A stretch of 32,000 bases of DNA from contig NC_004459.3 of the NCBI RefSeq assembly GCF_000039765.1, forward strand, positions 2,511,127 to 2,543,126, given 5' to 3'. Under the pieces are notes generated by a model. The model was not told the origin of the DNA, made no database searches, and saw only the letters and a list, made by a program, of their open reading frames with translations. A program made the position numbers and the translations under genes. This document shows, in pieces, positions 7,960-8,859 of the stretch (positions within the stretch are counted from its first letter, which is position 1; the number at the start of each line of letters is the position of its first letter). The DNA is from Vibrio vulnificus CMCP6 (lineage in GTDB: Bacteria; Pseudomonadota; Gammaproteobacteria; Enterobacterales; Vibrionaceae).

Positions 7960-8859
7960 ATGTACAACTTAATAATTGGGTATACAGGACCGAGTGAGAG
8001 CGAGAATGAAGTTATTGTTTCTGCTTCAAGGTTTCTCGAATACACTGACTCTGAAACGCAAATGCGATACAGAAACTTGAACGCAGATAATGTCCGAGAG
8101 CTAAAAGACTTCCCTGCACTATTTTTGCAAGAACATTGCCCTGATGGAGCTTTTGTAGCCAACATCACTAATATCACTCGTTCATATAGAGATTATAAAA
8201 TTACGTTTGAAAGAGATGATAGCTATGGTGTAATCCCGAAAGAAACAATAGAAGACTTGGCTATTGAGTTAGGCATCGAGGAATTTGAGTTCTATCGAAC
8301 GCATTGGGCAGTCAAAAGCTCAAACTTGGCAAATATCTTAAGTCCCATCGAAACTCCAGTCCGTCCTACTTCACCAGTTGAATTCGAAGCTGAAAACCTA
8401 CCGCCAGAGGACGGTTCTAGTTTTAATAAGAACCAAGTATTCATAGTGCATGGGCATGACGAACACGCCAAGAACGATGTTAAAGCATACGTTGAATCTA
8501 AAGGTTTAGAGCCAATAATTCTTCATCTACAGGCTAGTGGTGGAAGAACTATCATTGAGAAGATTGACCACTATAGTAATGTTGGATTTGGTATCGTTCT
8601 TTATACTGAATGTGACCTAGGAGCTAAAAGGGATACTTTGAGCTTTAAATGGAGAGCTCGTCAAAACGTAGTTTTTGAACATGGCTACCTCATTGCAAAA
8701 CTATCGAGAGAAAGAGTGGCAGCCTTAGTTAAAGGTTCTGTTGAAACCCCAAATGATATTAGTGGGGTTGTTTACGTTTCTATGGATGCTGCGGGAACGT
8801 GGAAAGATGAGTTAGATGCAGAGTTACGCAACGCTGGGTATGAGATTCCAAACAGCTAA
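7960..8859 (+). CDS. two-domain protein: unknown N-terminal domain + C-terminal TIR-like (CAP12/Pycsar-effector, PF10137/COG4271-type) domain
   Basis: 299 aa. The C-terminal blocks are [48 protein letters not shown] and [10 protein letters not shown]. The RBS is AAAGGA. The TAA stop lies in the attC R''. Confidence 0.75.
   Translation: [299 protein letters not shown]

What the first reader, a model, noticed from the sequence alone, without database searches (positions are those of the whole stretch)
7960..8859. Single-gene cassette: unknown sensor-like N-domain fused to a TIR-like (CAP12/Pycsar-effector type) domain with no cyclase partner, a candidate compact antiphage system
The C-terminal half (aa ~160-299, nt 8437-8859) reads [63 protein letters not shown]...[42 protein letters not shown].

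From memory this reproduces the hallmark blocks of the TIR-like family PF10137/COG4271: FIVHGxD, GRTIIEKF, RARQNVIFELGYF and PSDIxGVxY. That family serves as the NAD-degrading effector module in CBASS (Cap12) and Pycsar (PycTIR). The Glu in the RQNVxFE block is present (E240, nt 8677-8679).

The N-terminal ~130 aa ([28 protein letters not shown]) match nothing I recognise. They are joined to the C-terminal half by a Pro/Glu-rich linker ([24 protein letters not shown]).

The window contains no CD-NTase, pyrimidine cyclase or cNMP-binding gene. The gene is sealed between attC#14 and attC#15, so it must act alone or with unlinked partners.

Vibrio chromosomal integron cassettes are established reservoirs of miniature antiphage systems. 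This cassette fits that profile and has a domain architecture I cannot assign to a named system.
Basis: partly seen in the sequence, partly recalled or inferred. Interest (0 to 1): 0.8.

Follow-up and report, generated by a model that had tools for sequence, protein, structure and literature searches.

The report
Solitary sensor–TIR NADase integron cassette
A Vibrio vulnificus integron cassette encodes one protein joining a CAP12-type TIR (NAD-destroying) domain to an uncatalogued, very widespread N-terminal domain that is also fused to many other anti-phage effectors, so it is probably a self-contained phage-defence switch, still untested.

Summary
**Observation confirmed.**
- ORF 7960-8859 (+) encodes 299 aa, sealed between attC#14 and attC#15 of a 50-attC array.
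- The protein is V. vulnificus WP_011080333.1.
- Residues 159-276 hit Pfam PF10137 (E=6.6e-35). E240 aligns with the Cap12 catalytic Glu. The model's best PDB matches are TIR-STING filaments.

**No partner gene.**
- The other 36 window ORFs contain no cyclase.
- No neighbour family recurs across 45 species-level loci.
- The same protein sits beside different cassettes in other Vibrio genomes.

- The TIR half already matches a named but unvalidated PADLOC candidate, PDC-S35.
- The N-terminal ~127 aa are not an orphan. They define a modular domain with 1,280 clusters (50% identity) at E<=1e-3.
- No standalone model for it exists in Pfam, NCBIfam or PADLOC.
- It carries an invariant polar constellation (R24, E27, T29, E58, E110, R113, H115, W116, K119).
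- It is fused to CAP12-TIR, TIR_2/SEFIR, FRG, AbiJ-type Abi_C, PNP+kinase, CHAT and EAD2-kinase-FGE-sulfatase.
- It occurs in a lambdoid phage moron and, without any effector, in a Lachnospiraceae phage.

**Most likely mechanism (inferred).** A ligand-gated, single-protein abortive-infection NADase. Antiphage activity, the ligand and the N-domain fold are unproven.

**Rating.** New variant of a known kind; moderately high interest.

The parts
7797..7921 (+). attC#14 (upstream recombination site). Inverse core TAAC at 7797-7800 and core GTTAGCT at 7915-7921. The cassette begins after G7915.
   Evidence: 14th of 50 + strand inverse-core matches. Self-BLAST repeat site 7782-7936. Sequence read.
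7916..8971 (+). The integron gene cassette, about 1,056 bp, holding one ORF.
   Evidence: Bounded by the G|TT crossover points of attC#14 and attC#15. The identical protein sits next to different cassettes in other genomes (L048, L049).
7949..7954 (+). Shine-Dalgarno-like AAAGGA, 5 nt before the ATG. No sigma-70-like promoter was found between attC#14 and the ATG.
   Evidence: Direct reading. The promoter scan found no + strand site upstream of the ORF, and the total number of hits equals the shuffle expectation.
7960..8859 (+). ORF of 299 aa: N-domain, linker and CAP12-type TIR. Identical to V. vulnificus WP_011080333.1.
   Evidence: More than 100 full-length homologues at 52-99% identity. 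dN/dS is 0.01-0.14.
7960..8340 (+). N-terminal domain (aa 1-127). A compact beta/alpha domain, uncatalogued and modular; the presumed sensor.
   Evidence: AF2 pLDDT 94.2, pTM 0.89. 1,280 clusters at E<=1e-3 across many architectures. No model in Pfam, PADLOC or NCBIfam.
8287..8316 (+). Signature motif E110-F-Y-R113-T-H115-W116-A-V-K119 of the N-domain. Together with R24, E27, T29, P52 and E58 it forms the invariant polar constellation.
   Evidence: At least 96% conserved in 144 N-domains with median 33% identity. All 11 residues are kept in an effector-less phage copy.
8341..8433 (+). Variable Pro/Glu-rich linker (aa 128-158), ending in the conserved N146/F155-N156/Q159 lead-in to the TIR domain.
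   Evidence: pLDDT below 50 at aa 133-141. Highest dN of the three regions. Conserved columns listed.
8434..8787 (+). CAP12/Pycsar-type TIR domain (aa 159-276), the predicted NAD+ glycohydrolase effector.
   Evidence: PF10137 E=6.6e-35. PDC-S35 E=8.7e-75. PDB Cap12 9lmq by sequence, E=5.4e-6. Foldseek top hits are the TIR-STING filaments 9lmq, 9lmr and 7un8.
8677..8679 (+). Codon GAA for E240, the predicted catalytic glutamate.
   Evidence: RQNVVFEHG aligns with RDNVVFEFG of Cap12 9lmq. Invariant in 33 homologues.
8857..8977 (+). attC#15 (downstream recombination site). Inverse core TAAC at 8857-8860 overlaps the TAA stop codon. Core GTTATG at 8971-8976.

Best explanation
The cassette encodes a self-contained, single-polypeptide immune switch.

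- **Effector.** The C-terminal CAP12/Pycsar-type TIR domain is an NAD+ glycohydrolase. It is presumed to stay inactive in the monomer.
- **Sensor.** The N-terminal ~127-aa domain is a sensor with a conserved polar pocket (R24, E27, T29, E58, E110, R113, H115, W116, K119). This pocket would bind a conserved infection-associated cue, most likely a small nucleotide-like ligand or a nucleic-acid feature rather than a fast-evolving phage protein.
- **Activation.** Ligand binding would drive oligomerisation of the TIR domains, as seen in the TIR-STING filaments. That would assemble E240-containing active sites, deplete NAD+ and arrest or kill the infected cell (abortive infection).
- **Expression.** The cassette has no promoter of its own by a simple scan. 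Expression would therefore depend on read-through or on moving towards the integron promoter.

What is shown and what is inferred:
- Shown here: domain identities, catalytic-residue conservation, solitary status, cassette mobility, modularity of the N-domain and purifying selection.
- Inferred: NADase activity, activation by oligomerisation, the sensor role, the nature of the ligand and the antiphage phenotype.
For: **TIR effector**
- PF10137 at 120 bits.
- E240 aligns with the Glu of the RDNVVFE block of Cap12 chain 9lmq; the TIR-STING putative catalytic glutamate is noted in 10.64898/2026.04.30.722052.
- Best structural matches are TIR-STING filament structures, E down to 2.6e-7.
- CAP12/Pycsar TIRs are reported to become active NADases through oligomerisation (paper 10.64898/2026.04.30.722052).

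**Self-contained**
- No neighbour family is shared by more than 2 of 45 species-level loci.
- No cyclase among the window's other ORFs.
- The same protein has different neighbours in L048 and L049.

**N-domain as sensor**
- It is the constant element in proteins whose variable parts hit PD-T4-6 kinase, bSEFIR, AbiJ C-terminus, the CBASS PN-superfamily effector, PDC-S15 FRG, SAVED-CHAT and TIR effectors.
- Four partner families are NAD+-processing: CAP12-TIR, TIR_2, SEFIR and FRG. FRG is placed in the ART superfamily as a possible NADase in PMC9503650.
- An invariant polar constellation persists across 144 copies with median 33% identity.

**Defence ecology**
- Integron cassettes in Vibrio, Colwellia and Aeromonas, and repeat-flanked in a Nitrospinaceae MAG.
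- OLD/GajA ATPases among the 4 nearest neighbours in 4 of 44 loci.
- Full-length copies on Vibrio plasmids.
- The N-domain+FRG relative is a lone, oppositely oriented gene in lambdoid phage Tritos.

**Functional constraint**
- dN/dS is 0.03-0.14 for the N-domain and 0.01-0.02 for the TIR domain, with saturated dS in most pairs.
Against: - There is no experimental evidence for defence, NADase activity or ligand binding. PDC-S35 is only a candidate name, and no paper in the searched library mentions it.
- The N-domain fold is unassigned. The best PDB hit is a YTH domain at E=0.019 and TM 0.43. There is no profile similarity to the ASCH cassette in the same window.
- A strictly conserved Glu/His/Lys/Arg set could equally be an enzyme active site rather than a sensor pocket.
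- The inter-domain arrangement is not predicted with confidence (pTM 0.49). Autoinhibition is therefore an assumption.
- The defence-island signal around the homologues is moderate and was not quantified against a background.
- Most homologue loci have no recognisable mobile-element context.
Confidence: 0.6

Rival explanations
1. The N-domain is an adaptor rather than a sensor. It would act as a homotypic or heterotypic docking module, in the manner of effector-associated domains. It would couple the TIR effector to an unlinked hub, such as a STAND or other NTPase sensor encoded elsewhere. On this reading the cassette is only the effector arm of a distributed system.
For: The combinatorial fusion pattern (TIR, kinase-FGE-sulfatase, CHAT, PNP) resembles that of effector-associated domains. 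One member carries a Pfam EAD2 domain next to the N-domain (P0237).
Against: - No protein family co-occurs in the neighbourhood across 45 species.
- The cassette moves on its own between arrays.
- The domain has an invariant charged/aromatic constellation. That is unusual for a pure docking surface.
- None of the 20 architectures scanned joins the N-domain to an NTPase.
Confidence: 0.12
2. The N-domain is itself an enzyme, for example a nucleic-acid- or nucleotide-modifying hydrolase of a PUA-like or other barrel fold. The protein would then be a two-headed effector or metabolic enzyme, with the TIR-like domain acting as a nucleotide-binding or regulatory module.
For: - Invariant E27, E58, E110, H115, K119, R24 and R113 look like a catalytic set.
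- Weak structural resemblance to PUA-like barrels: YTH, Lon-N and SRA.
- PF10137 proteins are often annotated simply as 'nucleotide-binding protein'.
Against: - The partner domains vary and are all known effector types, while the N-domain stays constant. That is the signature of a sensor or regulator.
- The TIR domain keeps its catalytic Glu and is the most constrained part, with dN/dS 0.01-0.02.
- An effector-less copy with an intact pocket exists in a phage. That fits binding better than toxicity.
Confidence: 0.12
3. The TIR domain produces a signal (Thoeris-like) rather than depleting NAD+, and it activates an unlinked effector. Alternatively, the gene is not immune at all. It could be an addiction or stress module that stabilises the integron array, or a housekeeping nucleotide-metabolism protein.
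For: TIR domains can make cADPR-type signals (paper 10.64898/2025.12.03.692087). Sedentary chromosomal integrons carry many toxin-antitoxin cassettes (general knowledge), and the window has HTH/Gp49-type cassettes.
Against: - PF10137-type TIRs have been characterised as NAD+-depleting effectors (CBASS, Pycsar). That study treated standalone TIRs as likely depleting effectors and discarded them.
- No ThsA-like neighbour recurs.
- No antitoxin ORF lies in the cassette.
- Most homologues lie outside repeat arrays. This argues against an integron-stabilising role.
- The patchy, cross-phylum, plasmid and phage distribution argues against housekeeping.
Confidence: 0.1

Closest known systems
CBASS Cap12 / TIR-STING (for example SfSTING, PDB 7un8; 9lmq/9lmr)
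   Same: Same TIR subfamily (PF10137). The catalytic Glu block aligns (RQNVVFEHG against RDNVVFEFG). These are the best structural matches. The likely shared activation logic is sensor-driven TIR oligomerisation into an NADase.
   Different: - Domain order is reversed: TIR is N-terminal in TIR-STING and C-terminal here.
- There is no STING or SAVED domain.
- There is no CD-NTase in the window or next to any homologue.
- NCBIfam Cap12 equivalogs score 25-28 bits against a 450-bit cutoff.
Pycsar PycTIR
   Same: PF10137-type TIR effector that depletes NAD+.
   Different: The PADLOC PycTIR model matches only weakly (E=0.001). There is no cNMP-binding domain and no PycC cyclase.
PADLOC candidate single-gene system PDC-S35
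   Same: All five PDC-S35 profiles match strongly, the best at E=8.7e-75. The family is likewise a single gene.
   Different: - The match covers only the TIR half plus lead-in: aa 150-296 for the best profile and aa 116-297 for the widest.
- The N-terminal 77-125 positions of those profiles do not align with this N-domain.
- The N-domain alone hits no PADLOC model.
- PDC-S35 is an unvalidated candidate with no literature in the library.
Single-protein sensor-effector defences built on exchangeable modules (bSEFIR, AbiJ, PD-T4-6)
   Same: Relatives of this N-domain are fused directly to a bSEFIR-type SEFIR domain (3.2e-65), the AbiJ C-terminal Abi_C domain (5.6e-18) and a PD-T4-6-type kinase (about 1e-50). 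Each is one polypeptide with no partner gene.
   Different: The reference proteins of those systems do not carry this N-domain; their profiles match only the effector parts. Their triggers are also largely unknown.
Integron-cassette defence systems (BRiCs; Darracq et al. 2025, Kieffer et al. 2025, Getz et al. 2025)
   Same: A compact defence-type gene packaged as a promoterless cassette in a sedentary chromosomal integron of a Vibrio.
   Different: This cassette is not among those described in the two preprints I could read, and neither mentions TIR.

Membership tests
PF10137 CAP12/Pycsar-effector TIR domain family | Profile match above Pfam's gathering score over the whole domain | tested here: met
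   120.1 bits against a 24.7-bit cutoff, profile positions 1-118 of 119, aa 159-276.
PF10137 CAP12/Pycsar-effector TIR domain family | Catalytic glutamate in the RxNVxFE block | tested here: met
   E240 aligns with the Glu of the RDNVVFE block in Cap12 chain 9lmq; that this Glu is the catalytic one rests on the TIR-STING literature. It is invariant in 33 homologues.
PF10137 CAP12/Pycsar-effector TIR domain family | TIR (flavodoxin-like) fold closest to solved Cap12/TIR-STING structures | tested here: met
   The ten best Foldseek hits are 9lmq, 9lmr and 7un8 chains, E from 2.6e-7 to 2.2e-4. The TIR half of the model has moderate confidence (10-residue-block mean pLDDT 57-90).
PF10137 CAP12/Pycsar-effector TIR domain family | NAD+ glycohydrolase activity that depends on oligomerisation | not testable with these tools
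   Needs biochemistry. Inferred from the literature on the family.
CBASS (Cap12 effector) | Adjacent CD-NTase cyclase gene | tested here: not met
   No CD-NTase among 36 window ORFs. No recurrent neighbour in 45 loci.
CBASS (Cap12 effector) | Cyclic-oligonucleotide sensor domain (STING or SAVED) fused to the TIR, with a full-length equivalog match | tested here: not met
   NCBIfam Cap12 equivalogs score 27.9 and 25.1 bits against a 450-bit cutoff. No STING or SAVED hit in Pfam or PADLOC.
Pycsar (PycTIR effector) | PycC cyclase partner and a cNMP-binding domain | tested here: not met
   PycTIR model E=0.001, over the TIR part only. No cyclase or cNMP-binding domain in the window.
Thoeris (ThsB-type signalling TIR) | Adjacent ThsA-like effector that receives the TIR signal | tested here: not met
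   No conserved neighbour. No ThsB Pfam or PADLOC hit.
PADLOC PDC-S35 (candidate single-gene defence) | Match to PDC-S35 profiles as a stand-alone gene | tested here: met
   Five profiles match, from 8.7e-75 to 2.1e-37. Only the C-terminal ~150-180 aa align, and the N-domain is outside the profiles.
PADLOC PDC-S35 (candidate single-gene defence) | Demonstrated antiphage activity | not testable with these tools
   This is a candidate designation only. No paper in the library mentions it.
Integron gene cassette | One ORF bracketed by two attC sites in the array's orientation, with the ORF end abutting the downstream attC | tested here: met
   attC#14 at 7797-7921 and attC#15 at 8857-8977, two of the 50 co-oriented sites. 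The stop codon lies inside the inverse core. An unconstrained DNA fold did not recover the canonical attC hairpin, so the structure was not confirmed.
Integron gene cassette | Mobility: the same cassette in different array contexts | tested here: met
   The identical protein sits next to different cassettes in L046/L047 compared with L048 and L049. Homologues are flanked by array repeats in Colwellia, Vibrio sp., Aeromonas and Nitrospinaceae.
PUA-like barrel superfamily (YTH/EVE/ASCH/SRA/Lon-N), considered for the N-domain | Significant structural or profile similarity to a member | tested here: inconclusive
   - Best Foldseek hit is the YTHDF3 YTH domain at E=0.019, TM 0.43; Lon-N and SRA are weaker.
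- The PDB profile search found nothing.
- hhalign against the window's own ASCH protein found nothing.

The most novel reading that the evidence does not exclude
The N-terminal domain is a previously undescribed, very widespread immune sensor domain. It has at least 1,280 clusters at 50% identity, spanning many bacterial phyla and phages. Its invariant R-E-T / E / E-x-x-R-x-H-W-A-x-K pocket would recognise one conserved infection cue. It would gate at least seven classes of effector, most of them NAD+-consuming: CAP12-TIR, TIR_2, SEFIR and FRG/ART. Phages would answer with effector-less copies acting as sponges or decoys. The Lachnospiraceae phage protein XPP57825 keeps all 11 pocket residues. 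Identifying the ligand would reveal a new, general 'infection alarm' read directly by single-protein defences without any dedicated cyclase.
Probability: 0.3. Interest if true: 0.8.

Novelty: new variant of a known kind. Interest (0 to 1): 0.62.

Why it matters
- **An accessible model for trigger discovery.** Single-protein TIR defences are common, but what switches them on is mostly unknown. This cassette is small (299 aa), naturally isolated and mobile. Its trigger domain is shared by over a thousand protein clusters with many different effectors. Solving one ligand could therefore explain the activation of a whole layer of bacterial immunity.
- **A gap in annotation.** The domain has no standalone model in Pfam, NCBIfam or PADLOC.
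- **An annotation error.** The GenBank record of the source genome starts the gene at Met35, which removes part of the conserved domain.
- **A possible counter-defence.** The effector-less phage copy hints at one.
- **A V. vulnificus example.** The finding adds a V. vulnificus super-integron cassette to the idea that chromosomal integrons bank compact defence genes.

Tried and rejected
1. **Home-made attC scanners.** Two versions, a strict RYYYAAC/GTTRRRY scan and a gapped arm-pairing score, found 0 sites in the window, which is a clear false negative. I replaced them with self-BLAST repeat detection, which recovers the window's sites.
2. **Single-strand DNA folding of attC#14 and attC#15.** This did not reproduce the canonical hairpin (z = -1.3 and -0.3). 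I did not use it as evidence.
4. **PUA-like/ASCH hypothesis for the N-domain.** Not supported by the PDB profile search or by hhalign against the window's ASCH cassette. I keep it only as a weak lead.
5. **Short (~180-200 aa) N-domain proteins as possible N-domain+TM effectors.** Rejected. Most are truncated fragments of the TIR, FRG or TIR_2 architectures, and only one has a hydrophobic tail.
6. **A conserved partner gene.** Rejected.
7. **Membership of Cap12, PycTIR or Thoeris.** Rejected.
8. **Literature.** No paper was found on PDC-S35, COG4271 or standalone PF10137 proteins being tested. Getz et al. 2025 and the final Science version of Darracq et al. could not be read.
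Full report
**1. Observation**

The ORF is real and matches the description. It runs 7960-8859 on the + strand, starts with ATG and encodes 299 aa, and the translation is identical to the finding.

- E240 is GAA at 8677-8679, and aa 160 starts at nt 8437.
- The window is a chromosomal integron array. An attC inverse-core pattern occurs 50 times on the + strand against 0.36 expected.
- The 14th site starts at 7797 and the 15th at 8857.
- Self-BLAST independently marks repeat sites at 7782-7936 and 8849-8982.
- From the sequence, the cassette runs from T7916 (after the G of core GTTAGC) to G8971 (core GTTATG).
- The TAA stop lies inside the inverse core of attC#15.
- AAAGGA sits 5 nt upstream of the ATG.
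- No promoter-like site lies between attC#14 and the ATG.

The exact protein is Vibrio vulnificus WP_011080333.1 / AAO10837.1 (strain CMCP6). It lies on chromosome CP037931.1 in the same context as the window. Copies that are 99% identical occur in V. parahaemolyticus, the V. harveyi group and Vibrio sp..

**2. The C-terminal half**

- Pfam PF10137 (CAP12/Pycsar effector TIR) matches aa 159-276 over essentially the whole profile, at E=6.6e-35.
- By sequence, the closest solved structures are Cap12 chains 9lmq and 7un8. RQNVVFEHG aligns with RDNVVFEFG, which places E240 on the Glu of the Cap12 RDNVVFE block, taken to be the catalytic residue.
- The full-length AF2 model has pLDDT 81. Its best PDB matches are the TIR-STING filament structures (E from 2.6e-7 to 2e-4), followed by SPARTA TIR-APAZ.

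The protein is not a Cap12 or PycTIR orthologue:

- NCBIfam Cap12 equivalogs reach 25-28 bits against a 450-bit cutoff.
- The PADLOC PycTIR model matches only at E=0.001.
- The PADLOC candidate single-gene family PDC-S35 does match strongly (E=8.7e-75). The match covers only aa 150-296 for the best profile, or aa 116-297 for the widest.

**3. Is the gene alone?**

Yes, on all three tests.

- The other 36 window ORFs of >=90 aa carry typical integron cargo: GNAT acetyltransferases, glyoxalases, HTH/Gp49, a methyltransferase, an ASCH protein and an IS. No CD-NTase, PycC or cNMP-binding domain was listed; Pfam showed only the first 25 of 29 families, and ORFs under 90 aa were not scanned.
- In 45 loci, each from a species-representative genome, the all-against-all comparison of neighbours found no family shared by more than two loci, apart from the protein itself.
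- The identical protein has different neighbouring cassettes in other assemblies.

Homologues are bracketed by array repeats in Colwellia, a Vibrio sp., Aeromonas schubertii and a Nitrospinaceae MAG. Most of the others are not. Among the four nearest neighbours in 44 loci, OLD/GajA-type ATPases recur in 4 and UvrD helicases in 3. This is a moderate defence-island signal, and I did not compare it with a background.

**4. The N-terminal half: the main new result**

It is a real, independently folding domain. The AF2 model of aa 1-132 has pLDDT 94.2 and pTM 0.89, with topology b-b-a-a-b-b-b-a-a-b-a.

More than 100 full-length homologues share the two-domain architecture at 52-99% identity. They come from Gamma-, Beta- and Alphaproteobacteria, Desulfuromonas, Planctomycetota, Verrucomicrobia, Bacteroidetes, Anaerolineae and others.

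A profile of the N-domain alone finds 1,280 clusters (50% identity) at E<=1e-3 and 628 at E<=1e-10. The proteins range from about 130 to 870 aa. The domain is usually N-terminal and sometimes internal.

Pfam and PADLOC scans of representatives show the following partners:

| Partner domain(s) | Evidence |
|---|---|
| CAP12-TIR | The largest class |
| TIR_2 / SEFIR | PADLOC bSEFIR, 3e-65 |
| FRG | PADLOC PDC-S15, 3e-100 |
| Abi_C | PADLOC AbiJ C-terminus, 6e-18 |
| PNP_UDP phosphorylase + Ser/Thr kinase | CBASS PN-superfamily effector, 3e-72; PD-T4-6, 1e-50 |
| CHAT protease | Pfam CHAT |
| AbiJ_NTD3 + N-domain + TIR | Pfam |
| EAD2 + N-domain + kinase + FGE-sulfatase | Pfam |

No model in Pfam, NCBIfam or PADLOC covers the N-domain in any of these proteins. 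In PHROGs it appears only inside phrog_4962, which has unknown function.

According to PMC9503650, FRG is an ART-superfamily domain proposed as an antiviral, possibly NADase, effector. Four of the partner families are therefore NAD+-processing.

Across 144 N-domains with median 33% identity, these residues are at least 96% conserved: R24, E27, T29, P52, E58, E110, R113, H115, W116, A117 and K119.

**5. Phage and plasmid occurrences**

- Lambdoid phage Tritos carries TRITO_38, an N-domain+FRG protein of 444 aa. It is a lone, oppositely oriented gene between the replication module and HokD.
- A Lachnospiraceae phage encodes a 214-aa protein. It consists of a 69-aa low-complexity leader plus the N-domain, with no effector. 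All 11 invariant residues are intact, and the gene lies next to an excisionase.
- Full-length relatives occur on V. tubiashii, V. campbellii and Paraburkholderia plasmids.
- The TIR half alone matches 1,452 plasmids, mostly from Klebsiella and Escherichia.

**6. Constraint**

- dN/dS against homologues from other genera is 0.03-0.14 for the N-domain and 0.01-0.02 for the TIR domain.
- The N-domain accumulates 3-8 times more non-synonymous change than the TIR domain.
- The linker is the most variable region.
- dS is saturated in most pairs. The cross-phylum protein conservation therefore reflects selection and not recent transfer.

**7. Mechanism**

The best-supported reading is a single-protein, ligand-gated NADase.

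- The constant N-domain senses the cue.
- The variable C-terminal module executes. Here that is a CAP12-type TIR, which would oligomerise to form active sites, as described for TIR-STING and other CAP12/Pycsar TIRs.
- A strictly conserved polar and aromatic pocket across very divergent copies argues for a conserved small ligand or nucleic-acid feature. It argues against a rapidly evolving phage protein as the cue.
- No synthase is linked. The cue must therefore come from the phage or from host physiology during infection.

These steps are inferred and were not demonstrated. Three rivals remain open:

- an adaptor to an unlinked hub;
- an N-domain that is itself an enzyme;
- a signalling TIR or a non-immune role.

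**8. Fold of the N-domain**

The fold is unresolved.

- Foldseek against PDB gives only weak hits, with a PUA-like theme. The best is the YTHDF3 YTH domain at E=0.019 and TM 0.43, followed by Lon N-domain and SRA.
- BFVD gives nothing meaningful.
- A PDB sequence-profile search gives nothing.
- hhalign against the ASCH protein encoded elsewhere in the window gives nothing.

**9. Comparison and novelty**

- By analogy with Cap12 and PycTIR, the protein is predicted to share their effector chemistry. It resembles bSEFIR, AbiJ and PD-T4-6 in being a one-protein sensor-effector.
- It is a member of the PF10137 domain family and falls under the PADLOC candidate PDC-S35 through its TIR half.
- It is not a CBASS, Pycsar or Thoeris component.
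- The distinctive element is the uncatalogued N-domain and its wide effector repertoire.
- I found no paper that tested this protein or named the domain.

**Verdict:** new variant of a known kind. Interest is moderately high, because the cassette is a compact and tractable entry point to a large family of defence proteins whose trigger is unknown.

Noticed in passing
window 7960-8061 (aa 1-34): GenBank QBN15626.1, from the same V. vulnificus genome CP037931.1, and some V. parahaemolyticus entries annotate the gene from Met35 (265 aa, 'DNA-binding protein'). This cuts off 34 conserved residues, including invariant R24, E27 and T29. A 244-aa version also exists.
   Followed up: yes
L054:2569-3213 (Lachnospiraceae phage IMGVR 15430980, XPP57825.1): A phage protein of 214 aa, made of a 69-aa low-complexity leader plus the N-domain only, with no effector. 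It keeps all 11 invariant pocket residues and sits just upstream of an excisionase gene. It could be a decoy or sponge against N-domain-gated defences.
   Followed up: partly
L052:3441-4775 (Escherichia phage Tritos, TRITO_38): A 444-aa 'hypothetical protein' that is N-domain + FRG (phrog_4962, unknown function). It is a lone, oppositely oriented gene between the replication genes and HokD in a lambdoid phage, which looks like a prophage-borne defence moron.
   Followed up: partly
plasmid collection: A PF10137-type TIR gene lacking this N-domain is found on 1,452 plasmids, 823 of them predicted conjugative (Klebsiella 648, Escherichia 465). It is annotated only as 'nucleotide-binding protein'. 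Its N-terminal parts and function were not examined.
   Followed up: no
window, one of the 36 ORFs >=90 aa (not localised): One cassette encodes a bona fide ASCH (PUA-like) domain protein (Pfam E=3e-25). Others include a methyltransferase with weak PADLOC mad2/MTase_II hits and a weak CARF3 hit (2.5e-4). The bulk scan does not report which ORF gives which hit.
   Followed up: no
window 10209-11273 (- strand): A 354-aa transposase ORF (HTH_38 + rve integrase core) is inserted in the cassette array two cassettes downstream. It is the only long minus-strand gene in this part of the window.
   Followed up: no
window 9037-9354 (- strand): The cassette immediately downstream carries its 105-aa ORF in inverted orientation relative to the array. 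The ORF has a lipoprotein-like signal (LVTLTSGC). Inverted cassettes often carry their own promoter.
   Followed up: no
window 7595-7765: The upstream cassette holds only a 56-aa ORF with a hydrophobic C-terminal tail (LVGVAAIIWALSHF). It is not linked to the TIR cassette in other genomes (L048, L049).
   Followed up: partly
L010 (Colwellia sp. RE-S-Sl-9) and L023 (Rheinheimera soli): These loci show 25 and 14 dispersed short direct-repeat sites in 15 kb, indicating large chromosomal integron-like arrays outside Vibrio. In L010 the homologue is flanked by repeats on both sides; in L023 repeats were found only downstream of it.
   Followed up: partly
P0219, P0228, P0212, P0182, P0269, P0254 (one search hits): Several N-domain proteins have 130-600-aa partner regions with no Pfam, PADLOC or NCBIfam match. 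These may be further, undescribed effector domains.
   Followed up: no
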